Source: Bdellovibrionales bacterium
GTDB lineage: Bacteria > Bdellovibrionota > Bdellovibrionia > Bdellovibrionales > JAMPXM01
Direction of reading: 5' to 3'
Assembly (NCBI GenBank): GCA_043739185.1
Contig: JAYUEN010000387.1
Coordinates: 1 to 64,000 of the forward strand
Length of the DNA stretch: 64,000 nucleotides
Positions 17,929-56,589 of this stretch are shown here, piece after piece. The position numbers and the translations under genes are program-made. The notes under the pieces were generated by a model, which was given only the letters and a program-made list of their open reading frames with translations, searched no databases and was not told where the DNA came from. Each line of letters opens with the position of its first letter. Position 1 is the first letter of the stretch.

Positions 17929-19386
17929 CTATTTAAACAATAATTGGCAAGAATTAGAAACAATAAATGAAGTCCTCGACCAAGGCATTTTTAATGGAGT
18001 CTTAGGTGCGAATTTGTGCTCCCAAAACTCAAGCATTGCTTTGCCATTTTGCTCCATTATTGCATCAACCGGAATAGGTCCCATATCAACTAAATAAGCA
18101 GTGCCGTCTCGAACCACAATATTGTCAGGAGCAATATCCAGTTTTATCAAACTCAAATTTGCCATCGCCAAAGCTTTGGAATGCAAATCAAGCACGGACT
18201 TCGCAACTCCTGCATCTAAATGGTCATGGGTTTTTATATAAGCCTCAAGGCTTGGTCCCTTAATGTATTCGCTTAATATCCATTGTCCCTCGGGGTCAAA
18301 AGCCAATATCTCAGGGCTATCAATTTGAAATTTCATCTTTGCCCAATGTTGTACGTTGACAATTCTTTTATTGGTTTCGCGACCCTTTTTATTGCGTGCC
18401 ATTTTGATCGCAATTTCAACGCCATTTTTTTCAATTACAAATACATCGGCTTCAAGTCCACTGCCTAAATATTTTTTAACCGGAAAAATCTCCTCGCCGA
18501 TTTTGACCGTCATTAAATTCTTGTGACGCTTTAATTTGACGACCATTGCCTTTGTATTTTCAAAGAGGCCGATGGATTTCAACATAGAAATTGCCTTTCG
18601 AGAGGTCCAATTTTTCAATCCAGACAAGGGTGTCGCATGATTATTGTCGAGAGTGTCGAGATACAATCCGCGGCCTAAAATGACCTCAATGCTACTCGGA
18701 GCAATTAGTTTTGAAAGTTCGCTCAATTTGAATTGAATTTCTGGTGAAGTTCGATCGGCGAAATATAAGTCAAGATTATGGTGAATATAGCTTCGCGCTT
18801 TTGAGGATGAAATTCCAGCAGGTCCTTCGGGCATAAGGTGCACATTTCGAGCCGCCAAATTTCTTGGGAGATGATAATTTTCGGCATGATCGCGGGGAAC
18901 GACCAGAGTCTCATCAGGGTGAATGAGAAAAAGTAAATAAGGAAGCGAACTTTCGGCCACATCTTGGCCAACAACGAGGTCTATTTGTACGTTCGGATTG
19001 ATTTCGCGAATTTTTTTGTAGAAGGCATTAAATGGATTGAATCCCTGAGATAGGGCGGCCCATTCGCCATCGAGAGGATAAGTCAAATTGGGATGCCGAT
19101 TTAGTGCGGCGTCGATCAGTTGAACTCTTACCTCAAATGGTTGTGGCTTTTTATGAACGGGGCTACCAGTTGGCAAAATGATCACTAAATCTGCGCCAGA
19201 GGCCTTTAAAGAAATTTCAGCAGTTTCAATATGGCCAAGACTTACGGGATCGTAAGTGCCTGGCATAATAAGAATTTTTTTTGCAGATTTAATTTTCTCA
19301 TAATCAAGAGGTACGCCAAAGCTCAATGAACTAAATCCGAGAAAACATACGAGTAGGCTAGCTAAAAAAAATCCGAATGACTTCAT
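17929..19386 (-). CDS. Exported NadD-like nucleotidyltransferase fused to a protein-kinase-like domain
   Basis: Signal peptide; PGTYDPVSLGH, P.HK, VVGQD, ISSS..R (NadD-like); YLGSG, AIK, D..PDN, VDMG (kinase fold); C-terminal CQLLFK. Confidence 0.7.
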   Translation of the reverse strand: MKSFGFFLASLLVCFLGFSSLSFGVPLDYEKIKSAKKILIMPGTYDPVSLGHIETAEISLKASGADLVIILPTGSPVHKKPQPFEVRVQLIDAALNRHPNLTYPLDGEWAALSQGFNPFNAFYKKIREINPNVQIDLVVGQDVAESSLPYLLFLIHPDETLVVPRDHAENYHLPRNLAARNVHLMPEGPAGISSSKARSYIHHNLDLYFADRTSPEIQFKLSELSKLIAPSSIEVILGRGLYLDTLDNNHATPLSGLKNWTSRKAISMLKSIGLFENTKAMVVKLKRHKNLMTVKIGEEIFPVKKYLGSGLEADVFVIEKNGVEIAIKMARNKKGRETNKRIVNVQHWAKMKFQIDSPEILAFDPEGQWILSEYIKGPSLEAYIKTHDHLDAGVAKSVLDLHSKALAMANLSLIKLDIAPDNIVVRDGTAYLVDMGPIPVDAIMEQNGKAMLEFWEHKFAPKTPLKMPWSRTSFIVSNSCQLLFK

Positions 19387-19701
19387 ATTAAAATAACCTT
19401 AATAAAGGGTCCAAGATTAGCTTAAACACATGGGCGCTAAGCTCGCAAATTGCCTATGGGTCTTAAACTAAGCGAATTCGCTGCCAAATCAGGGACTTAA
19501 TCAATTCAAGCTGAGCTGCATTTCATGAAATTTTTATCTTAAGCGAGCCGAAATCGGGCAGGTCTTTTGTCCGGTCCAAAAAGCTAAATCAGTATTCGGA
19601 AATGTTCTCAAAACGCCGAATAGATTCAGCGATCAAAGTGAAAAAATTTTGCTAAATCGATGATTTCAAATCGTATTTTTATAAGGGCGAAAAACAAACA
19701 A

Positions 19702-22700
19702 ATGAGCCAGCCTCAGGATATTAGCCAAAGAAGTATTTCATGGGTTTTGCATTCCCCCATTCGCCTGTTTGGGGTGCTTTTCATTTCAACGAGTTTGGTA
19801 TTTGGTTTTAGTTTTGCGTTTGTGTACGATATGATTCACCAATCCGATCGTGAAGTTGCTGAAAAGAATATTTTAAATTCAAGTGCGCTGGTAAATAAAG
19901 TTGTTGCAGAACACTTTGGCGGATTGATTTCTTATTTAGAGAGCTATGCCAATCGAGAGAAATTCGATGAACATTTGCTCAAAAAAAATTATAAAGCTGC
20001 ACAGGAACAACTTCAAAATATGGTGATCAATAATAAAGGCATAGATGTGGCCTTTTTCACTAGTACCACCGGCGAGATTCTACTTCTTTATCCGGACGAT
20101 CCTCAAGTTGTTGGCAAAAATTTTGCTTATCGCCAGTGGTTTCAGGCCGTTTCGAAAAGCGGGCATTCAATTGTTTCAGAGATTTATCGAACCGCCACTG
20201 GCGCCAAACCAAGTGTCGTCGCCGTTTCGACGCCAGTTAAGAATGCAATGGGTAAAATTGTAGGATATTTATCAAGCTTAAGCCAAACTCAGCAGCTTGC
20301 CAAATGGGCAATGGATCATCGACTCACCGAAAATGGTAGCGTTCTCTTAATTGATCAATCAGGAAACCTCGCGTTCGAAGACGACTCGAAAGGCTATGAT
20401 GCCCTAAAAATGAAAGCTAAGTTTCAAAGTCTTAGTCTTTTTGCAGGCAGGGCATTTTCTTTCGAAGCGCAAGATCCGCTCAGTGCTAAGCCCAGCCTAA
20501 TCGGTTCTTCAAAAGTTCCGGGATTAGAATGGAATGTTTTAGTCAGTGAGCCCCTTGATGAAATCTTTGAGCAAGAAAAAATGATTTTGCGAGGGCTGGT
20601 CGTATTCTTCACAATTGTGGCTTTCAGTTTGGTCGCCTGGTGTTTTTATTGGTTGAGTAGCATCCGAAAACTTCAGCAGAAAAGGATGCGAGACCACAAT
20701 GAACTTTTAGTTGCCAAGAAAAAGCTTGAGAACTTAATTTCAAATACAGATGTTGTCTTATTTGCAATTGATAAAAATGGTATCGTAACAAGTGTCGAAG
20801 GAAAAGGCCGCGAAGCAGCTCGTCAAGGAAGCAAGGATGGTTTAGGTAGATCTATATTTGAAATTCTAAAGGGTAACCATGAGCTCTCATCAGCAGTAAA
20901 ACGGGCACTTAGTGGTGAAAAGCAAAATATTCGGATCCAACTCAATGGACTTTGGCATGAAGTTTCTTATTCTCCCATTTTTGATTTAGAAAATAAACCT
21001 AATGGACTAACTGGTATCGCGCTCAATATCGATAAGCAAGTGAGTTCACAAAATCAACTAACGGAGGCACAAGATCGTCTTCAGACTCTTTTAAAACACG
21101 TCCCCTTTGCGTTTTGGGCCATTGATACCAATCGTAAGTTTGTTTTTCGCAATGGTATTGGAGTCAGTGCAACTGGTTTGACCTCCGCGCAAATGATTGA
21201 TCGCTCAATTGATGAAGTTTATAAAGATCATCCGCATGTCATAGTTGCTATGGATCGTGCCTTGGCCGGCGAATCATTTGTTGAGGTGACTCAGATCGGA
21301 ATACGCTGGTACGAAGTGACCTTTACTTCGATTCGCGACTCAGTTGAAAAAGTTGTCGGAATTTCAGGGATGACAATTGATATTACGGATCGTAAACATC
21401 ATCAAGACGAAAAGGCAGAGTTAGAGATTCGCGCTCGTGCGGCCAATGAAGCCTCTAAATTGAAGTCTGAATTCTTGGCAAATATGAGCCATGAAATCAG
21501 AACGCCGATCAATGGGGTTATGGGTATGGTCAATTTGTTGCTGGATACCGCTCTCACGAATGAGCAGATTGAATTCGCTAGTACCATCAAATCAAGTTCA
21601 GATTCTCTTCTCAATATTATCAATGATATTTTGGATTTTTCAAAAGTTGAGTCCGGCAAGCTTGAAATTGAGAGCTTGGATTTTGACATCGTAGAATTTG
21701 GTTTGGATTTAGAGAAACTGTTCAAAATGATGGCCGAGAAAAAGGGCCTTCAGTTTCATTTTCAAGTTGGCAAAATAAAGCATCAAGTGTTTAAGGGTGA
21801 CATCGGAAGAATTCGTCAGGTGCTCAACAATTTAGTCGGAAATGCAATAAAGTTTACGAAGGCGGGAAGCGTTAGTGTACAGATTCAATCCTTAGAGGAT
21901 AATTCAACAGATTCTCATTTCAAATTTTTAGTTGAAGACACCGGCATCGGAATGTCTAAAACCTACCAAGAAAAAATGTTTCAAGCATTTTCCCAAGCCG
22001 ATGCCTCGATTACAAGAAGGTTCGGCGGTACGGGATTGGGGCTTTCAATTTGCAAAAAGTTAGTAGAGCTTATGGGTGGCAAAATTGGCCTTCTCAGTAA
22101 AGAGGGCGAGGGGACAACTTTTTGGTTTGAGCTGAGACTTGAAAAATCTCAAAAAATTCTCGCCCGAGACGAGGAAATTGTATTGGCCGTGGCAAAATCC
22201 CAAACTAAAAAGTACAGAATATTGGTGGCAGAAGACAATACCACCAATCAAAAGATTGTCGCCGCTCAATTGGCTAAGATGGGCTACCATGCCGATCTAG
22301 TTGCAAACGGTGAAGAGGCATTGCAGGCTTTACAGCTTTTGCCCTATGATATGGTTTTAATGGATTGCCAAATGCCTGAGATGGATGGCTATGAAGCCAC
22401 ACAGATAATACGAGCCAATATGGACTCTCAATTTTCTCATATTCCCATTATTGCATTGACTGCAAATGCTTTGGCTGGCGATCGCGAGCGCTGCCTGACC
22501 GCAGGTATGAACGACTATTTATCAAAGCCTTTTTCGACAAAAGATTTGGCAGCTAAGATTAGTCGTTGGTTGCATCAGCCCGTTCAAGTGCCATCATCTT
22601 CAGAGGCTACTACGTCCTTGTCGGCTGACTCCTCACTTGATGAAAACTGTTTAAATGAATTGCGTGACCTCGGCGGGGGTACAAATGCCATCATATTAGA

Positions 22701-22980
22701 GATTGGTGAGCTTTTACTCATCAATCTACCAAAGGAAATAGCAGCGTTGAAGTTTGCTCTTCGCGATAAGAATTCAAATGATTTGGCGGCAATTGCTCAT
22801 AAAGTGAAGTCAGGCTGCGCTAGCTTTGGCGCGCTTGGTCTTGCGAAATATCTCACCGAGCTCGAAAGCTTTGCCAAAGCTGGTGACCTTAAAGGGGTTT
22901 CCCAAGCGATCAATAAAATTGAACTTGAGTTCGGGCGAGTTGAAAGTGACTTTACCCAAAAGTATAAACTCGCCTCTTAG
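19702..22980 (+). CDS. Hybrid sensor histidine kinase (Cache-PAS-PAS-HisKA-HATPase-REC-HPt)
   Basis: FLANMSHEIRTP, NAIKFT, DTGIG, GGTGLGL, LMDCQMP, AHKVKSG; alternative start 19660. Confidence 0.93.
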   Translation: MSQPQDISQRSISWVLHSPIRLFGVLFISTSLVFGFSFAFVYDMIHQSDREVAEKNILNSSALVNKVVAEHFGGLISYLESYANREKFDEHLLKKNYKAAQEQLQNMVINNKGIDVAFFTSTTGEILLLYPDDPQVVGKNFAYRQWFQAVSKSGHSIVSEIYRTATGAKPSVVAVSTPVKNAMGKIVGYLSSLSQTQQLAKWAMDHRLTENGSVLLIDQSGNLAFEDDSKGYDALKMKAKFQSLSLFAGRAFSFEAQDPLSAKPSLIGSSKVPGLEWNVLVSEPLDEIFEQEKMILRGLVVFFTIVAFSLVAWCFYWLSSIRKLQQKRMRDHNELLVAKKKLENLISNTDVVLFAIDKNGIVTSVEGKGREAARQGSKDGLGRSIFEILKGNHELSSAVKRALSGEKQNIRIQLNGLWHEVSYSPIFDLENKPNGLTGIALNIDKQVSSQNQLTEAQDRLQTLLKHVPFAFWAIDTNRKFVFRNGIGVSATGLTSAQMIDRSIDEVYKDHPHVIVAMDRALAGESFVEVTQIGIRWYEVTFTSIRDSVEKVVGISGMTIDITDRKHHQDEKAELEIRARAANEASKLKSEFLANMSHEIRTPINGVMGMVNLLLDTALTNEQIEFASTIKSSSDSLLNIINDILDFSKVESGKLEIESLDFDIVEFGLDLEKLFKMMAEKKGLQFHFQVGKIKHQVFKGDIGRIRQVLNNLVGNAIKFTKAGSVSVQIQSLEDNSTDSHFKFLVEDTGIGMSKTYQEKMFQAFSQADASITRRFGGTGLGLSICKKLVELMGGKIGLLSKEGEGTTFWFELRLEKSQKILARDEEIVLAVAKSQTKKYRILVAEDNTTNQKIVAAQLAKMGYHADLVANGEEALQALQLLPYDMVLMDCQMPEMDGYEATQIIRANMDSQFSHIPIIALTANALAGDRERCLTAGMNDYLSKPFSTKDLAAKISRWLHQPVQVPSSSEATTSLSADSSLDENCLNELRDLGGGTNAIILEIGELLLINLPKEIAALKFALRDKNSNDLAAIAHKVKSGCASFGALGLAKYLTELESFAKAGDLKGVSQAINKIELEFGRVESDFTQKYKLAS

Positions 22981-23031
22981 ACTGCCCCTTAGATGTTTGA
23001 CCTCTACTGCAGCTTCGTGATTGACTAGGCT

Positions 23032-23391
23032 ATGAATATCTCACTCAAAGGCTTCATCTTTTTGATAGCAATTTTACATTTTTACTTTTTGTGCCTTGAG
23101 ATGTTTTTTTGGACAAAGCCCTTTGGCCAAAAGCAATTTCGAATGACAAAGGAGTATGCAGCTTCAACTGCAAAGCTAGCGGCCAACCAAGGGCTATACA
23201 ATGGATTTTTAGCGGCAGGTCTCATTTGGTCTACGATTTCTTCGAATTCACAATTTTCAAAAGAATTGGGAATGTTTTTTCTAAGTTGTGTGGTGGTTGC
23301 GGGGATATATGGTGGCTACTCGGTCAATCGACGCATATTTTTCATTCAAGCATTGCCCGCCTTAATTGTTCTTTTCATACTTTTGTATTGA
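23032..23391 (+). CDS. DUF1304 family membrane protein
   Basis: H.YF..LEMF.W, ANQGLYNGFLA, YG..S...I...Q. Confidence 0.85.
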   Translation: MNISLKGFIFLIAILHFYFLCLEMFFWTKPFGQKQFRMTKEYAASTAKLAANQGLYNGFLAAGLIWSTISSNSQFSKELGMFFLSCVVVAGIYGGYSVNRRIFFIQALPALIVLFILLY

Positions 23392-23400
23392 GGTATTAAA

Positions 23401-24306
23401 ATGGATCGCAGTATTCAGGTTTGTAATATTTTATCTCGTATCGTAGTCGGAGGGATGTTTCGCTCTGACTATTCGACTAAAAGCTTGCGGCGAAATATGA
23501 ATCTGATTTCAGCAATTCCGCAAGCAGTACTTAAAAGACGCTCGCCAACAACAGAAATCGAAGCCGTCAACATTGATGGTTTAGAGGCCGAGTTTATTTC
23601 GACTCAGGCAAATCATGCAGGAATTTTGCTCTATTTGCATGGCGGTGGATACTTTATGGGATCGATTGCAACTCATCGCAGAAGCGCGTGGGAAGTATCA
23701 CATCACTGCAACCTAAAAGTTCTTTTGATTAATTATCGACTGGCACCCGAGCATCCTTATCCCGCAGCTTTAGATGACGCGAAAAAGGCTTACCGGTTTT
23801 TAAAAAATAAATTTCCGCATCTGCCAGTCTCAGTGGGCGGAGATTCGGCTGGTGGCGGCTTGAGTCTCGCTTTAACAATGGCACTTCGAGATGAAGGCGA
23901 GCCGCTGCCTGCGCGCCTATTTGCAGTGTCACCTTGGGCCAATTTAAATGTTGAAGGCGAATCTATCAAGCGTAACCATGCCAATGATTTTTGGCTGAAA
24001 GAAAAGGTACTCAAGCGTTGGGCCTCGTTGTATTTTGCGAAGAACGCGCCCCATCAGCCTTATATCTCGCCTGCGCTCGGAAGTTTTGAAAAATTTCCTC
24101 CGTTCTTAATTTTTTGCGGTGATCAAGAAATTCTGCAAAGTGATTCTGAGCAAGTTTTTGATAAAGCAAAAAAAGCAGGCGTGAATGTAAAATTACATAT
24201 CGGAAAGAATATGCAGCATGTGTGGTTTCTAGCATTTCCTTTTTTAGCTGAAAGTAAACGTGCCTTTTTAGCTCTTCAAGAATTTTTTGGAAGTTCAAAT
24301 GAGTGA
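23401..24306 (+). CDS. Alpha/beta hydrolase (HSL-family esterase)
   Basis: HGGGY, YRLAPEHPYPA, GDSAGG, HVW. Confidence 0.9.
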   Translation: MDRSIQVCNILSRIVVGGMFRSDYSTKSLRRNMNLISAIPQAVLKRRSPTTEIEAVNIDGLEAEFISTQANHAGILLYLHGGGYFMGSIATHRRSAWEVSHHCNLKVLLINYRLAPEHPYPAALDDAKKAYRFLKNKFPHLPVSVGGDSAGGGLSLALTMALRDEGEPLPARLFAVSPWANLNVEGESIKRNHANDFWLKEKVLKRWASLYFAKNAPHQPYISPALGSFEKFPPFLIFCGDQEILQSDSEQVFDKAKKAGVNVKLHIGKNMQHVWFLAFPFLAESKRAFLALQEFFGSSNE

Positions 24307-30575: not shown

Positions 30576-31688
30576 CTAGTTTTTTAAATAAAGGACGGCA
30601 TTTTCTGCGGGAGACAATTCAGGGTCTGATATATGTTTAAAGGCCTCTTCGAGCTGTCCGCTTCTAAATGCACTAATAATTGCGGGATCAATATAAGAAT
30701 TAAGAGCAACTGACGGCGTATTGTGAAGGCGCTCAGAGGCCTTTACAGCTGCGAGCTTTATGGCCTCATCTTGATTAGGCTCCTCTTGTGGGCCAAGAGA
30801 ATGTAGCGTTTCAACGGCTTGAGTCGTTCCGACCCAAGTGCGAAAATCCTTGGCAGAGAATTGCGTTCCAATATGGTTTTTAATGTACTGATTAACCTCA
30901 GGTGCTTTTACGTCAAACAGCCTTTCATCCGATCCTTTGGTGCTAACTTGGCCCTTCAAAACGCGGGCAATTGCTTTGTCATCGACGATGATATCTTGGG
31001 GAATTCCCTCTTTGGCAATGAATTGAAAGCGCACTTTGGCTCCGCGAATTTGAACATGGTCCGCGCGCAAAGTTGTTAACCCAAAGGAAGGAAATTCGCC
31101 TTGGGCGTATTTTTCTCCGCCAATGCGAATTCCGCCAACTTCAAGCAATCGAACGACCGCTGCAATTTGTGAGTCCTGAAAACGCGCTGAACCTTGCAAA
31201 TCTCGAGAAACAGCAATTCGTAGTTTTGAAATAGCCTCTCCAAATTCCTTCATTCTCTCAAATTTAGCGGCGGCAAGTACCTTTTCATTCCAGTCCTCAT
31301 GGTATCGATATTGTGCGCGAGCACGGCTATCTAGGGCCCTTGCCTGAATATGGGCAAGCGGGTCTTGAGCAATCCAAACTTGCGAATATCCGGGTGGAAT
31401 TTTCAGTTCATTGATTCGTCTCAGGGTACTTGGATCTTGAACCACTTCACCTTGGTCAGTTTTATAAATAAAACTAACTTTATCTTCGGGCTTCGGCTGA
31501 GCAGCATTTTCGCGAATATAGCCTTTCCCGGGTGTCAACGAGTAGTGTAGACCTGAGGCCAAAGCCAATTGAACTGAGATCTCATGTTTGCTTAGGCTTT
31601 TAAATAGTGAAAGACAAGCGACGGGTGAGGCGAAACTCACCTGGCCAGAAAACACTAAGAGAAGGCTTAGAAATAAAAAACTTCGCAT
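30576..31688 (-). CDS. DNA topoisomerase IB with N-terminal signal peptide
   Basis: IPPGY..VWI, QYRYH..W, RIG...Y, SFGLTTL, F.AK, KDFRTW, LHNT....SYIDP (catalytic Tyr); MRSFLFLSLLLVFSGQVSFA leader then CLSLF. Confidence 0.88.
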   Translation of the reverse strand: MRSFLFLSLLLVFSGQVSFASPVACLSLFKSLSKHEISVQLALASGLHYSLTPGKGYIRENAAQPKPEDKVSFIYKTDQGEVVQDPSTLRRINELKIPPGYSQVWIAQDPLAHIQARALDSRARAQYRYHEDWNEKVLAAAKFERMKEFGEAISKLRIAVSRDLQGSARFQDSQIAAVVRLLEVGGIRIGGEKYAQGEFPSFGLTTLRADHVQIRGAKVRFQFIAKEGIPQDIIVDDKAIARVLKGQVSTKGSDERLFDVKAPEVNQYIKNHIGTQFSAKDFRTWVGTTQAVETLHSLGPQEEPNQDEAIKLAAVKASERLHNTPSVALNSYIDPAIISAFRSGQLEEAFKHISDPELSPAENAVLYLKN

Positions 31689-31887
31689 GATAAAGCCTGT
31701 TTGCGATCTCGATGCCAAAGGAGAGTTAAAATCGGAATCATTATAAAGCAGCGCAGGCCCCCTCGGCTTAAATTTAACTTTTTGTGTGACAAAATTCGTC
31801 GCTTGCAAAGATATTTTTTTCAATTTGGGTTTGCCTCTTCCCAGGTGCCTTTGGTCTTGATAATGATGAGAGTCAAAGAGGCAAACA

Positions 31888-33279
31888 TTGAATTCATCCC
31901 TATTTAGTTCCCTTCCTATATCTGAAAAAATTTTGAAAGTAGTAGAGGAATTGGGATTTAAAGCCATGACTCCAATTCAAGAGCAGGCTCTGCCAATTTT
32001 ACTCAGCGGACGCGATCTCATTGGTCAATCGAAAACAGGAAGTGGCAAGACCGCTGCTTTTGCGATACCGATTTTGCAAAAAATCGATCTTTCAAATCGC
32101 AGTCTTCAGGCAATTGTTATTTGTCCTACCAGAGAATTGAGTACGCAAGTGACGGGTGAATTTCGCAAGCTTGCCCGTAAGTTAGAGGGGCTTCAGGTTT
32201 TGAATTTATCGGGTGGACAGCCCGCAAGACCGCAAATCGATGCGCTTCGTTTGGGAATTCATATTGCGGTAGGAACTTCAGGTCGAATTCTCGATCTACT
32301 CGATCGTAGAGAGCTGGATTTTAGGAGCCTTAAAACATTGGTTTTAGATGAAGCGGATAAGCTTCTTGAATTGGGTTTTCAGGATGAAATCTCTGCAATT
32401 CTAGAGGCTCCAACGGCAAAGCGACAGACGCTTTTTATCTCAGCAACTTTTCCGGATGAGATAAAAAGCTTGAGCCTGCAATACCAAAAAAACCCTGTTC
32501 ATCTTCGCATTGAGGAGGCGCTTGAAGGCGCAAATCTGATTGAAGAAATTGCCTATGAAGTGGGTGAAGAAGAAAAGTCAGACTTGCTATTACGAGTCTT
32601 GCAGCAACATCCCGCAAAGTCCGTACTTATTTTTTGCAATCAAAAGACCACAGTCGATGAGTTGATTCATTTAATAGAAAAAGACGAAGTGAGTTGTGCG
32701 GCATTGCATGGCAATTTAGAACAACGCGATCGACAACTAGTGATGGCGATGTTTCGTAATGGCAGTTATCGAATTTTAGTGGCGACAGATGTTGCGGCTC
32801 GAGGAATTGACATTGATCACCTAGATTTGGTGATCAATTATGATTTTCCGATGAATGCAGAGGTTTATATACATCGAATTGGGCGAACCGGAAGGGCGGG
32901 TCGCGAGGGCGTTGCCGTCACCTTGGTAAAGCAGAATGAAGACTTGAAATTATTTGAAATTGAAAAATCTCGAGACAAACGACTCAGTCGTCCCAACTTG
33001 GGTTTCAAAAACCAACATGGCTTAAGTTCCTACTATCGCGAATCGTCAATGAAAACCCTTTGGATTTCGGGTGGTCGTAAAGACAAGCTAAGACCAGGAG
33101 ATATTTTAGGGGCCCTGACAAGAGAAGGTGCGGGTTTGAAATCTTCAGAAATTGGCAAGATTGATGTCTTTGATAATATGTCCCTCGTGGCAATTGCCAG
33201 TAAAGAAGCCGGCCGAGCATTTGAAGAATTGCGTGTAGGTAAAATTAAGGGCCGAAAATTTCAAGTGCGTTTGATATGA
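31888..33279 (+). CDS. dbpA: ATP-dependent RNA helicase DbpA
   Basis: Q motif, GSGKT, PTREL, DEAD, SAT, HRIGRTGR, C-terminal GGRKDKLRPGDILGAL domain. Confidence 0.93.
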   Translation: MNSSLFSSLPISEKILKVVEELGFKAMTPIQEQALPILLSGRDLIGQSKTGSGKTAAFAIPILQKIDLSNRSLQAIVICPTRELSTQVTGEFRKLARKLEGLQVLNLSGGQPARPQIDALRLGIHIAVGTSGRILDLLDRRELDFRSLKTLVLDEADKLLELGFQDEISAILEAPTAKRQTLFISATFPDEIKSLSLQYQKNPVHLRIEEALEGANLIEEIAYEVGEEEKSDLLLRVLQQHPAKSVLIFCNQKTTVDELIHLIEKDEVSCAALHGNLEQRDRQLVMAMFRNGSYRILVATDVAARGIDIDHLDLVINYDFPMNAEVYIHRIGRTGRAGREGVAVTLVKQNEDLKLFEIEKSRDKRLSRPNLGFKNQHGLSSYYRESSMKTLWISGGRKDKLRPGDILGALTREGAGLKSSEIGKIDVFDNMSLVAIASKEAGRAFEELRVGKIKGRKFQVRLI

Positions 33280-35971: not shown

Positions 35972-37534
35972 ATGGTGTTTTCGCAGCAACAATTAAGACT
36001 AGTTCAATTCACGTTTGCAATTGTTCTCTCCTCTAGCTTGGGTGTGAGCATGGCCTTCGCTGGCGGCGACCAATGCGAAAGCATCTTTGTTTCTACAAAG
36101 AGCAAAAGACAAATTGGCGTGAGCGAAGATTTTGTTGCCAAAATGCAGTCTCGTAGGCGCTCTGCTGCAGACAAAATGTTACAAAAATTTACCACGGAGA
36201 AGGGTCTTGCAGCACCCATGAACACGAGCCCCAAACATGACAATAACTATAGTTTCGAACTCCCGGAAGGTACTATAAAGGATCAGCAAAGGTCAGGCCG
36301 TTGTTGGATATTTGCTTCTCTCACGGCCATTGAAAATTTTTATTTAGGCAAAGGCAATTTAATGCCAGACGCCGAGTTTTCAAGAACCTATCTGCAATTT
36401 TTTAATATGCTCGAGCGTTCAAGCTCGCATTTAGAAAAGGTAATTGATTTAAGAAGAAACTCACAGCGCATTAGCAGCTCTACAATCTTACAAAGGATTG
36501 CACCTAAGATCGCGGACGGTGGCTATGTTGAAGATATTATCTTTTTAATTAAGAAATACGGCTTGGTCACCACAAGTGCAATGCCCGAAACTCTTAATTC
36601 ATTGAACACCGACCTATTGTTGGCTGAATTGAATTCTTATTTACAAGTTAAAAGTTATGAGATGTGGAATTTGTCTGAAAACTTCGACTCAGAGGCGCGT
36701 GCACTTCATGATCGTATCGTGAGGGGTCAGGCTGAAAACACCACAAAATATGATAAGGTGAGTTTGCAGGCCCTAAGCGAAGCTCAATTGCAAATATTAG
36801 AAGCGAAAAAGGAAGAGATATTAGGCGGAGTCTGGTTGATTCTTGAAAAAGCTCTGGGAACACCGCCGAAAACATTCACCGCTAAAGTACCAGTGACCAA
36901 TCCCAAGACGGGCGTTGCTCAAACTAAAATTCGCAAATTTGAGCCGCAAAAATTTGTGACCGACTATATGAAATTTAATCCTGAGGATTGGATCAATGTT
37001 TCTAATTTGAGAAATCGTCCTCGTGATCAAGTTTATCAAGTTAAATACCAAGACATGAACCGTGTGATACGAAGACTCAATTTAGATCCGGTACGAATGA
37101 TGAATTTGGTGAAAGCACAATTAAAAGCGGGTATGCCAGTACCGTTCGATTCGAACTTTGGCCCAGGAGTCAATCGCAAGACAGGTGATATGGAGCCTGG
37201 AACCGATGACTTAAAGGGAATGTTTCCTTATAAACAAGGCCAAGCGCCTAGGCGCTTGAGTAAATCAGAATTGGATATTTTAGGAATTTTAACCGCTGAT
37301 CACGAAACGGTTTTCATGGGATATGATCAACCAGAAGGATATGCGAATCCAATAAAGTTCAAGGTTGAAAATTCATGGAGTGATCAATATGGCAACGGCG
37401 GGAACTTCAACCTATCGGCGCAATGGTTTGATTTGTATGTAGACGGGATTATGATTCATAAATCAATGCTATCTCCAGAGGAGCTTGCGATTTTCAATGG
37501 CAAGCCTATCATTTTAAAAGCAACTAATGAGTGA
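35972..37534 (+). CDS. C1B family cysteine aminopeptidase (PepC/bleomycin hydrolase-like), exported
   Basis: Q..SGRCWIFA, DGG, KYGLV...MPE, DHE, KVENSW; signal peptide ending AFA then CESIF; RBS GGAGG. Confidence 0.88.
   Translation: MVFSQQQLRLVQFTFAIVLSSSLGVSMAFAGGDQCESIFVSTKSKRQIGVSEDFVAKMQSRRRSAADKMLQKFTTEKGLAAPMNTSPKHDNNYSFELPEGTIKDQQRSGRCWIFASLTAIENFYLGKGNLMPDAEFSRTYLQFFNMLERSSSHLEKVIDLRRNSQRISSSTILQRIAPKIADGGYVEDIIFLIKKYGLVTTSAMPETLNSLNTDLLLAELNSYLQVKSYEMWNLSENFDSEARALHDRIVRGQAENTTKYDKVSLQALSEAQLQILEAKKEEILGGVWLILEKALGTPPKTFTAKVPVTNPKTGVAQTKIRKFEPQKFVTDYMKFNPEDWINVSNLRNRPRDQVYQVKYQDMNRVIRRLNLDPVRMMNLVKAQLKAGMPVPFDSNFGPGVNRKTGDMEPGTDDLKGMFPYKQGQAPRRLSKSELDILGILTADHETVFMGYDQPEGYANPIKFKVENSWSDQYGNGGNFNLSAQWFDLYVDGIMIHKSMLSPEELAIFNGKPIILKATNE
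36135..36165. repeat. 31-bp perfect inverted repeat, right arm (inside the peptidase CDS)
   Basis: TTGCCAAAATGCAGTCTCGTAGGCGCTCTGC, encoding (V)AKMQSRRRS(A). Confidence 0.97.
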
Positions 37535-49557: not shown

Positions 49558-49609
49558 CAGTCTTGCTCTATAACTAGTTGTTGGGCTCAATCTTTTATTT
49601 GATTTCTTT

Positions 49610-49694
49610 AGGATTCAAATCAGTTTAAACGGCAGCAGCGGCTGTCAACCGAATTACTGTTTCAGTTTCAGTCTCAGTCTTTAGTGGGTCAGCT
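49610..49694 (+). repeat. Dispersed intergenic element, copy 4
   Basis: AGGATTCAAATCAGTTTAAACGGCAGCAGCGGCTGTCAACCG...CTGTTTCAGT...AGTGGGTCAGCT; abuts the stop codon at 49693. Confidence 0.88.
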
Positions 49695-50460: not shown

Positions 50461-50525
50461 GTGGACATTTGCTACCAGACTATGTTTTCTGTCAAACCGA
50501 TTCCGAATCAAAAGGAGAAATTCGA

Positions 50526-50918
50526 ATGAAGTACCTACATACGATGATACGCGTAAAGAATTTGGATTCTTCGATCCGCTTTTACCAAGATGTTTTGGGC
50601 ATGAATTTAATTTCAAAAGATGATTATCCAGAGGGAAAATTCACTCTTGCTTTTTTAAGTTACGGAAACACCAAGAGTGATCCCTGCATTGAACTTACCT
50701 TTAATTGGGGGCGAGAAAGCTATGAACTCGGAGATGCCTTTGGCCATATTGCGTTTTCGACAAATGATATTTATAAAACCTGTGAGCAGGTCAAGGCATT
50801 AGGTGGGAAGATAGCAAGAGAGCCTGGCCCGATGAAGCACGGCACAACTATCATCGCCTTTTTAGAAGACCCGAATGGATATAAAATCGAGCTCATTCAG
50901 AGTAAGACTCATCTCTAA
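50526..50918 (+). CDS. gloA: Lactoylglutathione lyase (glyoxalase I)
   Basis: HTMIRV, IELTFNW, FGHIAF, REPGP.K.G, DPNGYKIELI; RBS AGGAG. Confidence 0.95.
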   Translation: MKYLHTMIRVKNLDSSIRFYQDVLGMNLISKDDYPEGKFTLAFLSYGNTKSDPCIELTFNWGRESYELGDAFGHIAFSTNDIYKTCEQVKALGGKIAREPGPMKHGTTIIAFLEDPNGYKIELIQSKTHL

Positions 50919-50988
50919 TTTTTTCATGGGGCAAAATTCTTAAGATTGCCGCCAAGCTGCCACTAAATATGAAATTTTTTAAAAGAAG

Positions 50989-51016
50989 AGCGCAAACATA
51001 TATTTTAGTTTGCGCT
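50989..51016. terminator. Hairpin between convergent genes
   Basis: AGCGCAAAC / GTTTGCGCT stem. Confidence 0.55.
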
Positions 51017-51023
51017 ATTGATA

Positions 51024-51815
51024 TTACTTAGAGGTCTTTTGATAAGTCGAGCGAGTCGAATTGCCAGTATTAGGAAAGAGATCATTGATATAATCTTTTT
51101 TAATATTTGGAGCGACAACACCTGGTTTGCACTGTTTCACAACTTCACACATTGCTGAAGAGTTTAACAGACTTCCGATTTTATCTTTTAAATAAGCTCC
51201 TACAAGCGATTTATCATAAGCCATTGAAAGTCTCTGGAGGGCGAGATCGGTTTGATCAACCTTACTACTAAACTCTTGAAAGCTCGTGCGCACATCCATT
51301 TTCCTAAGATTTTTATCCATAGTATCAATCAGATCAGCAAGTGCGGCTGCTTCTTTCTTTTTGTCAGCAGCATTTGCATTGACCGCAGCTTGATAGGCGG
51401 TTTTTTTATTCGCAAAATCATTGATCGCAGCAGTTCGTGATCCCGCAATAGAATTTACGGTGCCGCCCATTGCGACTCGTTCAGCTTTGATTCTATTGAG
51501 TTCGGCAGTTTGCGTGGCAACCGCGGCCCGCAATCCCGGACCATCCGTGCCGCCTGTGCCCTGTCCCCAATTGAAAGGGCCAAAACCTCCAGCTGCTTTT
51601 TCGAGCGCAGCTTGGGCATCATCAACCTTACTTTGCTGCGCCAAAACAGATCTATTTAATTCATCAAGCGAAGTATTTGCTGCCAAGAGTCTTGTGGTCA
51701 TATCAGCTAAAGAGGTTTCAAGATCTTTTTGATTTGGTTGGGCAGGTACGGGAACTTGAGCTGCTATTGAGCCCAGTGAAAAAAGACATAAGAGTGCGAT
51801 TGTTAAAAGTTTCAT
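51024..51815 (-). CDS. Exported coiled-coil hypothetical protein
   Basis: Signal peptide, heptad-like Ala/Lys-rich helices, RBS GGAGG. Confidence 0.7.
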   Translation of the reverse strand: MKLLTIALLCLFSLGSIAAQVPVPAQPNQKDLETSLADMTTRLLAANTSLDELNRSVLAQQSKVDDAQAALEKAAGGFGPFNWGQGTGGTDGPGLRAAVATQTAELNRIKAERVAMGGTVNSIAGSRTAAINDFANKKTAYQAAVNANAADKKKEAAALADLIDTMDKNLRKMDVRTSFQEFSSKVDQTDLALQRLSMAYDKSLVGAYLKDKIGSLLNSSAMCEVVKQCKPGVVAPNIKKDYINDLFPNTGNSTRSTYQKTSK

Positions 51816-51983
51816 AAATATCCTCCAGATAATCTAATCTTAAAAAACGACCTAAGTTATGACAAGTCCAGATGGCTAGAGTGAACCAAACGAGACTATA
51901 TCTAGTCCTTGTTTCAAAAATGTTTCGTTTGTAATAGGGAATAGGCACGATCTCTTTTTTTTTGGTGGTCCAGCTTCTACAGA

Positions 51984-52062
51984 AGATTTTAAATCAGTTT
52001 GAAGGGCAGCCGCGGCGGTATACAGTCTCACTGTTTCGGTCTCGGGTTTCAGGGTAAAGGGT
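51984..52062 (+). repeat. Dispersed intergenic element, copy 5
   Basis: AGATTTTAAATCAGTTTGAAGGGCAGCCGCGGCGGTATACAG...CTGTTTCGGT; abuts the stop at 52063. Confidence 0.75.
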
Positions 52063-52662
52063 TCACTCCAAAGTATTCTGTCCGCCATCATCTAATTTTT
52101 TTGGAGCCTTCCAATAATTATATTGAGGAGTCCAGTCTTCGGCTCCTAGTCCAGCTAGACTGAGGATATGCCATTGGGAGCAAAAAAGATCGCCAGGACC
52201 GAATTTAGAAGAGTTCTTCTTATAAATTTCGCCGCCTTTTCTGGTATAGCAAACAATACCAGGCATATTCGACTCACCCGGAATCACGGATTGCTCTCTA
52301 ATATAGTCGCCGCCACCGTGAGAAACCATTTGAAAGCGCCAGCCTCTTGAATTTGCGAATTGTTTTTGCGTAAGCGGGGAGTCCTTTGACATCATAACCA
52401 CTGAAAACTGATTTTCAAGATGTGGCAAAAAGCCATTTAAGCCATCTCCCCAAAGTGTGCAATAGCGACAGCCCTGGCCCATATTATGAATGGCAAAAAG
52501 AATGTCTTTGCCAGCGAATAAATCGAGCAAGCTCAGCCTGCCGTTTTGACTAGTGAACTCATAGTTTTTTATCGGGCTCGGTTTATTATCTTTTCTTAAT
52601 TTTTCAAGCTTTTGAGTCAATTCATAAATTTCTTTTTCAGTCTTTTGAATTTCGTCTGTCAT
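52063..52662 (-). CDS. DUF899 family thioredoxin-like protein
   Basis: Y.F....G..SL.DLF.GK, HNMG.GC.YCT.W.DG, RGW.F. Confidence 0.8.
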   Translation of the reverse strand: MTDEIQKTEKEIYELTQKLEKLRKDNKPSPIKNYEFTSQNGRLSLLDLFAGKDILFAIHNMGQGCRYCTLWGDGLNGFLPHLENQFSVVMMSKDSPLTQKQFANSRGWRFQMVSHGGGDYIREQSVIPGESNMPGIVCYTRKGGEIYKKNSSKFGPGDLFCSQWHILSLAGLGAEDWTPQYNYWKAPKKLDDGGQNTLE

Positions 52663-52681
52663 GATTTTCTCCTGGTTCAAA

Positions 52682-53266
52682 TTACATTGATTCAAATTCT
52701 TTATTCGTTTGCTTTGACATATCAGGAGAATTCTTTGGTTCGCCCAGGGCGGCGCCGGGACGCGACCAAAGATCTTGACCTGCGGCGACTGAGCGCTTGA
52801 TATTCTCTGAACTCAATTCAACTGTGCCTTCGCAAACGCAAAGATAGGTGGCGCCTTCGCGATCTTCAAGTAAAAATTTTGTACCGCGAACGCCTGCGAC
52901 TGCAGTTCTCGTTTTAAATTTATAGTTTTTAACATCCGGCTTTTTTAAAAAATGAATAAAACTTTGGCCCTTGAGGAGAGTGAGGCTTTTTGCAAAAAGT
53001 TTTCCTTCGCCTTCAATAACGAGTTGTCCACCGGATTTTAAGCGAAGTTTGTGACCATCGGGATAGAGTAAATCAATTTGCGCTTTCGGATCATCTGCGA
53101 CTTTGATGAGACCGGCTCGGGAAATTTGATCTCCTGCTTTCAGGATTTGGCTTCCAAATTGGATCTCTCCGGTTAACTTAGTTACCTTTAAATTCATTTG
53201 TCCTGCAAAACTAAGTGGCGTTGCTAAAAATAAAAATCCCATTAAAAAAAACTTTACAATAATCAT
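52682..53266 (-). CDS. Exported FecR-domain protein
   Basis: Signal peptide; TRTAVAGVRGTKF, CVCEG.V. Confidence 0.8.
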   Translation of the reverse strand: MIIVKFFLMGFLFLATPLSFAGQMNLKVTKLTGEIQFGSQILKAGDQISRAGLIKVADDPKAQIDLLYPDGHKLRLKSGGQLVIEGEGKLFAKSLTLLKGQSFIHFLKKPDVKNYKFKTRTAVAGVRGTKFLLEDREGATYLCVCEGTVELSSENIKRSVAAGQDLWSRPGAALGEPKNSPDMSKQTNKEFESM

Positions 53267-53491
53267 TATGTTTCCGCCTTATGTCGTATTGTGGAGGAGA
53301 AGAAGTCTAAATGTCAAAATGTGCGTAGCGCGCTAGGGCAATATTAAATTGGATTCAAATCTTTATTAATAAGGCCGCTAGTTTTTTATTTTTATCTTCA
53401 GACAAAAAGCCTTTAAGCAAAGTAAATTTTTACCCCTCGCATTCACTGAAAATATTTTTTAGGTTTTGTCGTCCTTTTTGCCATAAGGAGC

Positions 53492-54028
53492 TCAGCGGTG
53501 CCGAGTGATCTCACCTTGAATCGATTCGTCATTTATTTGAATGCTGAACGTAGAATCTTGAAACAGTATTCCCCAGTTATTGTTTCGCTGAAGATTTTCC
53601 GAAAGAATTTTTAAAAAATCATTCTGAAAGGAAAAAACTTCGATCTTATCAAACTGAAATATATCTGAAGACTTCATTTCTTCAAACCAAAGCTTTGGAT
53701 CTTTATAGGTATAAACTTTAACTTTCTGAGCGGCCTTTGAGGCGCTGTGCAATCTTTTGGCGCTGGGGTTTCCGATTTCAATCCAAAGTAAGAGCCCGCC
53801 CCGTGGGTCCTTGATAAACAAAGGAGCTTGATCCGGATCACCCAAACCTTGAGCTGAAAACTCAAGAGCGGACTCAAAATTCAAAAGAAAAGCAATGGCT
53901 CGAGTCATTAAAAAAAGTAAAGACTCTGATGGATGCATTGCCAGTCGAAAATCAATACTTTCATAAAGACCACGATCAATATCAGAAAAATCAATTTTAA
54001 ATCTATAGAGTGTTGACGGCCGCGCCAT
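53492..54028 (-). CDS. yaeQ: YaeQ family protein
   Basis: D.DRG.Y, A.HPSE, WIEIG.P...RL..A.K. Confidence 0.88.
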   Translation of the reverse strand: MARPSTLYRFKIDFSDIDRGLYESIDFRLAMHPSESLLFLMTRAIAFLLNFESALEFSAQGLGDPDQAPLFIKDPRGGLLLWIEIGNPSAKRLHSASKAAQKVKVYTYKDPKLWFEEMKSSDIFQFDKIEVFSFQNDFLKILSENLQRNNNWGILFQDSTFSIQINDESIQGEITRHR

Positions 54029-54291
54029 CTAAAGAGCTTAAGCTCAAAATTTCTAATGGGCAAGGGGGCTTAAGTGCCTTGAGCGCTACTTATCCGACAT
54101 TGGCACCGTGCTTTTGCATAGTTCAGTACTTATTGGGCTCGTAAAACCTTTAAAGAGTAAACAAGAGGTGTGTATGAAAAAGCTATTTACAATTTTTGGC
54201 AATATCACCCTTATTCTGTCAGGATTTTAGACAGCATTTGCACCCGAAAAATATTTGAGAATGGGTGGCCTTGATGGGCAATCGATTGAGA

Positions 54292-56589
54292 ATGTATTTA
54301 AATTTTAAACTTTTTGCACTTCGTCTTCTGATCGGAGTTTTTTGTATGCTTTTCAAAAGTATGGCCTTTGCGACCATAACAATTCACGAAATTAAAGCCA
54401 ATGAAGATATACAAACTTATTTAAATAGAACTGCGGGTAACGTTGATGCCACTTCCTTTCGCCAAATCTTAGGCGCTGCTTCAGATTTTAAAGAAGGCGA
54501 TGAGAGTATTGGTCTGAGTGCTCATGATGAGGTTTCGCGCCAAAGAGCAAGACAGTTGCTCGCAAACACGAAGGTCCTTGCATTAGTTGAAAGTTCATAC
54601 CTCGGCTCAGATTCGCAAGAGCAAATGATTCGCTCTTCAATAGACACCCCAATTTATAAATCGTTGCGGGATAAAAGCGTAGGCGAACTCAAAAGCTTTT
54701 TGCTGGGGGCTTCTGAGTTCGAGATCAAGAAAATCATGCCGGGACTTCACAGTGATGTAATTGCAGCGCTTGTAAAACTTATGTCAAATGAAGAGCTCAT
54801 ACAAATTGGACAGAAAGTTTTCAATCCATTGCCAAATAGTTCGATCGGAAAAAAAGGATATTTAAGTGCACGGCTTCAACCCAACTCCTCGACCGATCAT
54901 CCTGGTGACATTCGCTGGCAGGTTTTCAATGGCTGGGCATTTGGCGTTGGGGACCTCATGTTGGGAAGCAATCCGGCTTCAAGTACCCCTGAAATTGTTC
55001 ATCGGACGGAATTGCTTTTAAAAGACCTCGTCGAAAGCTTTGGCCTACGAGACGTACTTCCTTGGACAGTGCTTTCACATATAGATATTCAAAATACTGT
55101 TGAGCAAAAAGATCCGGGCAGTACGCGATTGTGGTTTCAAAGTATTGCTGGGAACGATGAGACCAATGCTGTTTTTGGAACTTCAGCCGCCAGCTTGATG
55201 GAGTATGCAAGAAAGCGAAAGGGCCAAAATTTTGGTTTGTACCTCGAGGCAGGACAAGGATCGGAAGTTACCAACGGGCACAGCAATGGACTTGATATGG
55301 GCACTCTCGAATCACGAAAGTACGGCTTGGCGCGGGCTTTAAAACACGCCCAAGGTGGAGAAAAATCTTGGATGGTAGTTAACGACGTCGCAGGATTTAT
55401 CGGGCCTGAAGTCTTTCGTAGCAAAGAGCAGCTGGTTCGAGTGGCGCTCGAAGATACGGTAATGGGAAAATTGCATGGCCTGACAATGGGGCTAGATATT
55501 TGCTCGACCTTTCATATGCCAATTACTCCAAAGGATTTACGCTGGGCAATTGATCACATCATGCCGGCCAATCCGGCCTATTTGATGGCGTTGCCAACGC
55601 ACAATGATCCCATGCTGAGTTACAACACGACGCCCTTTCAAGAGCATTTAAGAATTCGCCAGAAGTTTAAATACAAATATGATGAAAGAATGAAAGCGTT
55701 TTTTATTAGATTGGGAATAATCGATATTGGCGGAGAGCCAACGGAGCACTTTGGTGATCCAATTTGGGTTTACTATCAATATCAAAAAACTCGTGGTGTA
55801 ACTCAGAGTTATTCTGAATTTAAAAAACGGGCAGAAATTGAAATGCAAGAAGTGCAAAGACGTGGAGTGGCTTTATCGATTGGCTTTGGCAAAAATGTTT
55901 GGGATTTTAATGCAGACCTTGATCGTTCACTTGAAGCTTTAGATGCAGCTGCCAGAGCCAGCATTCATGCCCCGTTAAATGCTGATTTCTTAACGAAATA
56001 CTTTCCGAACTCCTTGCAATTGAATACTCAATCTGAAAATCGCGATCAATATTTGTCGAAGCCAATTTCGGGTGAGACTTTGTCCGAATTTTCGAAGGCG
56101 CAACTCTTGAAATTAAATATCGGATCAAGTGATGTCATTCTGGTCATTTCGGATGGACTCAATTCAGATTCACTGATGGATGCAGGACATTTAGAGCCCT
56201 ATCTCCAAGAGTTGAAATTGCAATTGCAGAATCGCGGGCTCAAAATTCATCCTGATCCGATAATTGTTCACAATGCCAGAGTGCGAGTTTCCTATCGCAT
56301 TGGTGAAGAACTATTTGCTCATTTCACTCAGACGGATCAAATCAAGTCTGTGATCAATATTGTCGGGGAGCGTCCCGGTAACGGGCACAATACTTATTCG
56401 GCATATCTTGCAACGGCAAGCGTGAGTGCATGGAAAGAAAAAAATCATGACCATGATCGCACCGAACTCGTATCTGGAATTTCAGATACATCTCTTGAGC
56501 CAAGACAAGCGGCTCAAGACAGTGTCGAGAAGATATTACTCAAAACTCAATTCATTCTCGGTAAGCAATGCATCGCTTTGTTCAACTGA
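54292..56589 (+). CDS. eutB: Ethanolamine ammonia-lyase EutB-EutC fusion with signal-like N-terminus
   Basis: RLQPN, GD..LG.NP, FQSIAG, E.GQGS, N.V.GFIGPE, LED..MGKL.G..MG.D.C.T (EutB); ISDGL, RV, VGERPG (EutC); leader ending AFA; C-terminal CIALFN. Confidence 0.85.
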   Translation: MYLNFKLFALRLLIGVFCMLFKSMAFATITIHEIKANEDIQTYLNRTAGNVDATSFRQILGAASDFKEGDESIGLSAHDEVSRQRARQLLANTKVLALVESSYLGSDSQEQMIRSSIDTPIYKSLRDKSVGELKSFLLGASEFEIKKIMPGLHSDVIAALVKLMSNEELIQIGQKVFNPLPNSSIGKKGYLSARLQPNSSTDHPGDIRWQVFNGWAFGVGDLMLGSNPASSTPEIVHRTELLLKDLVESFGLRDVLPWTVLSHIDIQNTVEQKDPGSTRLWFQSIAGNDETNAVFGTSAASLMEYARKRKGQNFGLYLEAGQGSEVTNGHSNGLDMGTLESRKYGLARALKHAQGGEKSWMVVNDVAGFIGPEVFRSKEQLVRVALEDTVMGKLHGLTMGLDICSTFHMPITPKDLRWAIDHIMPANPAYLMALPTHNDPMLSYNTTPFQEHLRIRQKFKYKYDERMKAFFIRLGIIDIGGEPTEHFGDPIWVYYQYQKTRGVTQSYSEFKKRAEIEMQEVQRRGVALSIGFGKNVWDFNADLDRSLEALDAAARASIHAPLNADFLTKYFPNSLQLNTQSENRDQYLSKPISGETLSEFSKAQLLKLNIGSSDVILVISDGLNSDSLMDAGHLEPYLQELKLQLQNRGLKIHPDPIIVHNARVRVSYRIGEELFAHFTQTDQIKSVINIVGERPGNGHNTYSAYLATASVSAWKEKNHDHDRTELVSGISDTSLEPRQAAQDSVEKILLKTQFILGKQCIALFN

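What the first reader, a model, noticed from the sequence alone, without database searches (positions are those of the whole stretch)
17929..56589. Candidate effector tag: signal peptide plus terminal C-x-x-[LI]-F motif on normally cytoplasmic enzymes
Seen: four unrelated, dispersed genes encode a Sec-type leader and the same short motif at a mature terminus. NadD/kinase ends CQLLFK* (17935-17949). TopoIB has FA|SPVA-CLSLF (31602-31616). C1B peptidase has FA|GGDQ-CESIF (36074-36088). EutBC ends CIALFN* (56569-56583). Known: these families act on ATP, DNA, AdoCbl or cytosolic peptides and are normally cytoplasmic. Internal control: the GH15, trypsin, SLT and S1/P1 hydrolases here lack the motif. 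Inference: a portable N- or C-terminal sorting or attachment signal, for example for delivery into prey/host cells or Cys-linked surface anchoring. I know no named system for it. Caveats: n=4, short motif, and the EutBC copy is encoded inside an overlap with the convergent MFS gene.
Basis: partly seen in the sequence, partly recalled or inferred. Interest (0 to 1): 0.85.

Follow-up and report, generated by a model that had tools for sequence, protein, structure and literature searches.

The report
Terminal cysteine tag on predator effectors
About fifty unrelated exported proteins of a predatory Bdellovibrio-type bacterium, and many in its relatives, carry the same five-residue cysteine tag at one end or the other; it looks like an undescribed address label for enzymes that have to work inside the prey cell.

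Summary
Confirmed and much wider than reported. All four motifs are at the stated coordinates. Genome-wide, C-x-x-[LIVM]-F sits just behind a predicted signal peptide (28 observed, 0.8 expected) or at the C-terminus (18 observed, 0.4 expected) of exported proteins; at least 51 genes carry it, never at both ends. It is usually the protein's only cysteine, is invariant in orthologs after a variable linker, and goes with the signal peptide (6 of 6 tagged orthologs have one, 0 of 10 untagged). It occurs across Bdellovibrionales, including B. bacteriovorus, where the tagged Fic enzyme (inferred to be Bd2033) peaks at prey entry. Cargo is enriched for enzymes needing ATP, NAD, acetyl-CoA, SAM or DNA, but ordinary hydrolases are tagged too, and most cargo has no family. 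It is not a lipobox, CaaX box or CTERM sorting signal; it works most like the mitochondrial Mia40 signal. Best reading: a periplasmic docking handle whose cysteine is disulfide-linked to a carrier that routes effectors into prey cytoplasm. No receptor was found; mechanism untested. Not found in print in my searches; this scan noted the N-terminal form twice on other DNA.

The parts
17929..19386 (-). Exported NadD-like nucleotidyltransferase + protein-kinase-like fusion, 485 aa, C-terminally tagged
   Evidence: Pfam PF01467, PF00069; Foldseek NadD and kinase hits; 4 of 4 homologs keep the tag
17935..17949 (-). Tag CQLLF (then K*); sole mature Cys; C and F invariant after an unconserved linker; tail unstructured in the model
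19315..19386 (-). Predicted Sec signal peptide of the NadD/kinase protein
   Evidence: sequence; heuristic only
30576..31688 (-). Exported topoisomerase IB, N-terminally tagged; catalytic R, K, R, Y positions invariant
   Evidence: Pfam PF01028, PF21338; alignment
31629..31688 (-). Predicted Sec signal peptide of TopoIB
31602..31616 (-). Tag CLSLF, 4 residues after the predicted cleavage site; sole mature Cys
   Evidence: present in 3 of 3 other homologs with a signal peptide, absent from 7 of 7 without
35972..37534 (+). Exported C1B (bleomycin-hydrolase-like) peptidase, N-terminally tagged
   Evidence: Pfam PF03051; orthologs CGNLF, CVNMF, distant CPALL
35972..36061 (+). Predicted Sec signal peptide of the C1B peptidase
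36074..36088 (+). Tag CESIF; only one other mature Cys, in the papain-type catalytic region
54292..56589 (+). Exported fused EutB-EutC ethanolamine ammonia-lyase, C-terminally tagged
   Evidence: Pfam PF06751, PF05985; G001 ortholog tagged, three cytoplasmic EutB untagged
54292..54372 (+). Predicted Sec signal peptide of EutBC
56569..56583 (+). Tag CIALF (then N*), inside the 54-nt overlap with the convergent MFS gene (56536-57816)
   Evidence: overlap absent in ortholog L163

Best explanation
C-x-x-[LIV]-F is a portable docking handle on a subclass of Sec-exported Bdellovibrionales proteins, mostly predation effectors. After Sec export the tag lies free at whichever mature end carries it (shown by sequence; free tail inferred from a low-confidence model). 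It forms about one turn and a half of amphipathic helix with Cys, +3 and +4 on one face (inferred by analogy to the Mia40 signal). A dedicated periplasmic receptor or carrier binds L/F and forms a mixed disulfide with the Cys, which is why the cargo has shed other cysteines (depletion shown; reason inferred). The carrier routes cargo across the predator outer membrane and the prey inner membrane; reduction in the prey cytoplasm releases enzymes that need ATP, NAD, acetyl-CoA, SAM, AdoCbl or DNA (inferred). Component odds: a functional recognition signal about 0.9; cargo mainly prey-directed about 0.65; disulfide as the chemistry about 0.5.
For: Enrichment 28/0.81 and 18/0.40, Cys-specific. Sole mature Cys in 27 of 47 G000 proteins; two or more other Cys in 8 of 47 vs 506 of 821 untagged exported proteins, p=2e-9; 32 of 44 complete tagged ORFs in relatives have no other Cys. 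Tag and signal peptide co-occur 6/6 vs 0/10 in TopoIB and EutB homologs (kin not independent). Invariant C and F after a variable linker. 95 unrelated tagged families in the loci held. Cargo includes Fic, ADP-ribosyltransferase, GNAT, methyltransferase, pol-beta NTase, ATP-grasp, deformylase, papain-fold deamidase, none of the trypsins, subtilases or M13/M28 peptidases seen among untagged controls. The B. bacteriovorus type-strain Fic protein carries CEYVF as its only Cys; Bd2033 is in the entry-peak proteome cluster, is induced at 30 min and was a predation-defective transposon hit. The same Fic domain is alternatively the tip of polymorphic-toxin-like giants.
Against: No receptor, carrier or recurring neighbour gene was found; the one carrier candidate is in 2 of 151 order genomes. 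Many tagged proteins are ordinary hydrolases and 27 of 47 have no family; without the four window genes the cofactor enrichment in G000 is 3 of 16 vs 0 of 28, p=0.04. The probable Fic ortholog showed no fitness defect in a Tn-seq screen. Two other tagged type-strain proteins (Q6MM56, Q6MJD9) were not found in the proteome supplement, so timing rests on one protein. Lack of structural disulfides fits any reducing destination or an unfolding step and does not prove a mixed disulfide. 7 of 95 tagged families have a hydrophobic segment that could hold them in the predator's own membrane. Signal peptides are heuristic.
Confidence: 0.45

Rival explanations
1. The Cys is modified with a lipid or other anchor by an unknown enzyme that reads L/F, tethering cargo to the outer membrane or to vesicles that may fuse with prey.
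For: Single free Cys near a terminus next to hydrophobic residues; Cys-containing CTERM signals are thought to be side-chain modified; no partner gene found.
Against: 0 of 32 N-terminal tags match a lipobox and no C-terminal Cys is at -4; no transmembrane segment or Arg cluster; some Fic homologs carry a separate lipoprotein-like Cys plus the tag-like Cys, so the tag adds something a lipid anchor does not.
Confidence: 0.2
3. The tag is read non-covalently by a secretion system, chaperone or protease (export signal for a T2SS/Tad-type machine, or a timing/degradation signal); the Cys is a specificity residue or redox switch.
For: G000 has five secretins including GspD-, PilQ- and Tad-like ones; the tag is terminal and unstructured.
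Against: Absolute Cys conservation with free x positions and loss of other cysteines is more simply explained by thiol chemistry; working at either terminus argues against directional threading.
Confidence: 0.18
4. Chance, annotation artefact or a structural capping helix of each protein.
For: Five-residue motif; EutBC copy in a gene overlap.
Against: Poisson 4e-33 and 7e-24; profile found 4 held-out genes and real tags in 25 of 29 best hits of relatives; unrelated folds; no partner Cys.
Confidence: 0.02

Closest known systems
Mitochondrial MISS/ITS signal read by Mia40 (PMC2806287, passages seen)
   Same: Short amphipathic helix with a docking Cys and hydrophobic residues 3 and 4 away; portable; works upstream or downstream of the Cys; oxidising compartment.
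   Different: Needs an aromatic at 7 (not conserved here in the Bdellovibrionales form); substrates are Cys-rich and end up with internal disulfides, whereas these are Cys-poor; eukaryotic; no homology claimed.
Cys-containing C-terminal sorting signals MYXO-CTERM, JDVT-, Synerg-, CGP-CTERM (bioRxiv 10.1101/2023.06.07.544157, passages seen)
   Same: Dozens of unrelated signal-peptide proteins per genome share a terminal motif with an invariant Cys.
   Different: No transmembrane helix, no Arg cluster, also N-terminal; no NCBIfam model hit.
Single-disulfide cargo tethering in AB-type toxins, e.g. CdtB Cys269-PltA Cys214 (PMC4885037, passages seen)
   Same: An enzyme exported by Sec hangs on a delivery partner by one terminal Cys and would be released by reduction.
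   Different: One fixed pair in one operon; here about 50 dispersed cargos share a generic tag and no delivery subunit is known.
Bacterial lipoprotein signal (lipobox, Lgt/LspA) and CaaX prenylation motif (definitions recalled)
   Same: Cys close to a mature terminus.
   Different: Cys lies 2-7 residues behind an A-x-A site or 5-9 from the C-terminus; pattern tests failed.

Membership tests
Lipoprotein (SPII) signal | [LVI][ASTVI][GAS]C lipobox ending the signal peptide | tested here: not met
   0 of 32 N-terminal tags match; 15 tags are C-terminal
CaaX prenylation motif | Cys four residues from the C-terminus | tested here: not met
   Cys at -5 (2), -6 (9), -7 (2), -8 (1), -9 (1)
MYXO-CTERM-type sorting signals | Invariant Cys in a short signature motif shared by unrelated exported proteins | tested here: met
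MYXO-CTERM-type sorting signals | Transmembrane helix then Arg cluster after the motif, C-terminal only | tested here: not met
   0-4 residues follow C-terminal tags; 32 of 47 are N-terminal; no such model among NCBIfam hits shown for 55 proteins
MYXO-CTERM-type sorting signals | Cognate CPBP-family sortase | not tested
   not searched
MISS/ITS (Mia40) | Docking Cys with hydrophobic residues at 3 and 4 | tested here: met
   L/I/V/M at +3 and F at +4 (these positions are part of my search pattern, but LF is by far the commonest pair after a terminal Cys: 34 vs at most 7)
MISS/ITS (Mia40) | Aromatic residue at 7 | tested here: not met
   +7 is mostly D/S/Q/E; hydrophobic +7/+8 seen only in distant Fic homologs
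MISS/ITS (Mia40) | Mixed disulfide with a CPC-type receptor | not testable with these tools
   needs thiol-trapping experiments; no receptor identified
AB-type toxin disulfide tether | Co-encoded delivery (B) subunit | tested here: not met
   no recurring untagged neighbour specific to tagged genes; candidate module in 2 of 151 genomes
Prey-delivered effector | Reaches and acts in the prey cytoplasm | not testable with these tools
   indirect only: cofactor needs, entry-phase timing of Bd2033

The most novel reading that the evidence does not exclude
Bdellovibrionales have an undescribed two-step protein delivery pathway in which any Sec-exported enzyme bearing a five-residue Cys-helix at either end is covalently loaded on a carrier and released by reduction in the prey cytoplasm: a bacterial counterpart of the Mia40 signal used for predation. 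The tag would enumerate the cytoplasmic effector arsenal of each predator (Fic, ART, kinases, topoisomerase, primase-like and metabolic enzymes) and give a handle to fish out the machine.
Probability: 0.35. Interest if true: 0.95.

Novelty: categorically new. Interest (0 to 1): 0.82.

Why it matters
How Bdellovibrio, sitting in or on the prey envelope, gets enzymes to a prey cytoplasm that stays compartmentalised is an open question (PMC2797640, PMC11055950 passages; PMC12622784 calls secretion largely unexplored). A five-residue tag that marks tens of otherwise anonymous proteins per genome gives a predicted effector list, a one-residue mutation to test in a genetically tractable strain (Cys29 of the Fic protein), and bait for the receptor. 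Even if the cargo stays on the predator, a terminal Cys signal that works at either end has no counterpart among the sorting signals I compared.

Tried and rejected
A DNA pattern for the C-terminal tag was no better than its control in 41 genomes, so C-terminal tags were counted only in G000 and in ortholog sets. Profile search of 1.84 billion representatives returned 3 chance repeat proteins: too short a profile, no range outside the phylum obtained. No PDB chain with the tag. Atlas gave nothing for the tag region and only weak MafB/PT-TG-like leads (0.79-0.86) for the Cys-rich module. First named-genome scan with TopoIB found nothing. Neighbourhood analysis found no dedicated gene. The Cys-rich polymorphic-toxin-like module was rejected as general receptor (2 of 151; model pLDDT 33). 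A profile of the longer variant seen in distant Fic homologs retrieved only that family, so a second dialect is not shown beyond it. Five of 20 strict C-terminal hits were dropped by hand from the curated set (C180:17285, C285:604, C470:3805, C388:7056, C471:20641; repeat-, pilin- or lipoprotein-like); they remain in the objective counts where classed as SP. No complex prediction was run: no credible partner.
Full report
Observation. The four motifs translate exactly as stated and the four genes belong to the named families (NadD and kinase folds also by Foldseek). Each has a hydrophobic leader ending in a small-x-small site; I had no SignalP and used a heuristic that over-calls (1160 of 4358 ORFs as soluble exported).

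Chance. I called 4358 ORFs in the whole genome (4.85 Mb). C-x-x-[LIVM]-F begins 5-9 residues from the C-terminus in 20 ORFs, 18 of them in the signal-peptide class. Within that class the motif occurs 28 times 1-10 residues after the predicted cleavage site (0.81 expected from the internal rate) and 18 times at the C-terminus (0.40 expected); with any other residue in place of Cys the largest excesses are two- to threefold, and sevenfold for Trp on 3 counts. LF is the commonest pair after a terminal Cys (34, next 7). I curated 47 genes by hand (32 N, 15 C; five strict C-terminal hits dropped, see Tried and rejected); a profile of signal peptide plus tag built from 31 of them found 4 more that my ORF caller had missed, a held-out check. 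No curated N-tagged protein also has a C-terminal tag. Tagged genes are mildly clustered (11 of 47 vs 2.2) and have normal GC.

The cysteine. It is the only mature Cys in 27 of 47, with one more in 12. Other cysteines occur at 0.0017 per residue against 0.0098 in untagged exported and 0.0113 in cytoplasmic proteins; 8 of 47 vs 506 of 821 have two or more (p=2e-9). So it has no intramolecular partner, and the cargo lacks the structural disulfides typical of this organism's secretome. It is not a lipobox (0 of 32) or CaaX box. In the one usable model (pLDDT 70) the last 28 residues are below pLDDT 50 and not packed; the helix is therefore inferred, not shown.

Orthologs. NadD/kinase: 4 of 4 homologs (35-61% identical) end in the tag, C and F invariant after a linker that differs in length and sequence. 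TopoIB: the three other homologs with a signal peptide carry CESLF, CSELF, CEYLF; seven without lack it; one (L003) has a disrupted or uncalled start and was left out. EutBC: the fused, exported ortholog ends CETLFK* with no overlapping gene; three cytoplasmic EutB have neither leader nor tag. C1B: CGNLF and CVNMF in the two close orthologs, CPALL in a distant one. Tag and leader are thus gained together.

Range. The N-terminal profile hit 35 of 41 relatives at E 0.1; 25 of the 29 best hits inspected were true leader-plus-tag. In a phylum sample 38 of 151 genomes hit at E 0.02: 14 of 15 in family f11, 3 of 12 in f6, sporadic elsewhere, where several hits were leader-only but a few were real. 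Proteins from f11 have named B. bacteriovorus homologs, which places the window's genome in another family of the same order. Fic homologs in other orders carry a lone N-terminal Cys in a longer form (CxxHyHyxxHyF), not shown to extend beyond that family. Range outside the phylum was not obtained.

Cargo. The loci held contain 95 non-homologous tagged families. Most have no Pfam family (27 of 47 in G000; 41 of 63 in relatives). By hand, 6 of 20 annotated G000 proteins (NTase/kinase, TopoIB, EutBC, IucA-like weak, GNAT, ATP-grasp) and 7 of 22 in relatives (Fic, GNAT, methyltransferase weak, ADP-ribosyltransferase, pol-beta NTase, ATP-grasp, deformylase) need cytoplasmic co-substrates, against 0 of 28 annotated among 50 untagged exported neighbours (p=0.003 and 0.002; 3 of 16, p=0.04, without the window's four). 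But S1/P1, PLD, M48, papain and lyase domains are tagged too. The CP-ATP-grasp family is C-tagged in G000 and N-tagged in G018 (no direct BLAST hit between the parts held).

Link to experiments. Six of six named Bdellovibrio Fic proteins carry CE[YQ]VF as sole Cys, as does the type-strain member CAE79880.1, with a Fic-type HPVLNGNGRTTR motif (motif consensus recalled). The only Fido row of the HD100 proteome table is Bd2033, so I infer identity. It is in the entry-peak cluster (log2 change 1.77 at 1 h, then falling; PMC12546842 supplement rows and file 4 part 1), is induced at 30 min and was among Tudor's predation-defective transposon hits (PMC2797640 passage; Tudor 2008 not read), and has a Bacteriovorax marinus homolog among 15 shared predation-induced genes (PMC3526173 passage). 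Against: the 'cell filamentation protein' row of a Tn-seq screen shows no fitness loss (1.5-2.0; PMC6561027 supplement), and two other tagged HD100 proteins were not found in the proteome files (one scanned file unreadable, one cut). The same screen lists the DsbA-family Bd0789 as needed for predation (fitness 0.005), which fits thiol chemistry but could reflect pilin folding alone.

Machine. Not found. Neighbours recurring beside tagged genes are generic. A Cys-rich module that carries the same Fic domain on 1430-2230 aa proteins in another order has one G000 homolog but occurs in 2 of 151 order genomes. It does show that this Fic domain is used as a toxin-like tip, and that tag and large N-terminal module are alternatives. 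G000 has five secretins and four DsbA-like matches.

Mechanism and comparison. A lone, invariant Cys with two hydrophobic residues one turn away, at a free end, on Cys-poor cargo bound for an oxidising compartment is best read as a docking handle that forms a mixed disulfide. It works like the Mia40 MISS/ITS (PMC2806287 passages) and like single-disulfide tethers of AB toxins (PMC4885037 passages), but fails membership tests for these, for lipoproteins, CaaX and CTERM signals (bioRxiv 2023.06.07.544157 passages). Destination in prey cytoplasm and the disulfide are inferred; lipidation, tag-tag pairing and non-covalent recognition remain open.

Novelty. Full-text searches for CxxLF, CxxxF motif, Cys-x-x-Leu-Phe and C-x-x-L-F returned nothing relevant, and term searches in PMC11656739, PMC13689555, PMC12622784, PMC12546842, PMC7925074, PMC12034629, PMC12419801 and PMC11055950 (passages only) showed no such motif; subscription journals and bioRxiv supplements are not covered. 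Two earlier notes of this scan saw the N-terminal form on single operons of other genomes; I did not check those loci.

Noticed in passing
L219:9445-11916 (G000 C398:87444-89915); also L220:4037-5893 and L222:3445-6426: Exported proteins with a Cys-rich helical module followed by amphipathic/coiled-coil regions; the first is homologous to the N-terminus of 1430-2230 aa Fic-tipped proteins (L212-L217), and like them follows a small exported gene with two C-terminal cysteines. Looks like an unnamed polymorphic-toxin delivery module.
   Followed up: partly
L184, L188, L189, L190, L192, L193, L194: Fic homologs built as lipoprotein-like Cys, then an R-x-P-A motif, then the tag-like Cys helix; R-x-P-A may be a processing site that frees the tagged cargo.
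   Followed up: partly
G000 C386:91150-93180: Untagged PLD paralog has only two cysteines, one at each mature end (CIAQF, CDAMW), both tag-like; possibly an end-to-end disulfide and a clue to the tag's origin.
   Followed up: no
window 54292-56589: EutB and EutC are fused and exported in this genus, whereas other order members have split cytoplasmic genes.
   Followed up: partly
L203:1480-2298 (G000 C286): Lipoprotein DsbA-family protein with a long N-terminal helical extension, recalled as resembling DsbA2/ScsC isomerases; candidate enzyme acting on the tag.
   Followed up: no
window 30576-31967 and 31888-33279: The ORF-finder overlap of TopoIB with the divergent DEAD-box helicase is an artefact of an upstream start; the real start is 31688.
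   Followed up: yes
L120:5979-12862, L124:6237-12911, L125:4068-7738, L115:2511-6253: Tandem arrays of three to six tagged genes, partly paralogous, in relatives.
   Followed up: partly
G000 C1:5785, C94:7016, C120:8164, C229:658, C496:7028, C58:2816: Near-variants (CEDAF, CEEFI, CENFI, CESAF, CLSFF, CQDQF) as lone terminal Cys suggest about ten more tagged proteins than the strict count.
   Followed up: partly
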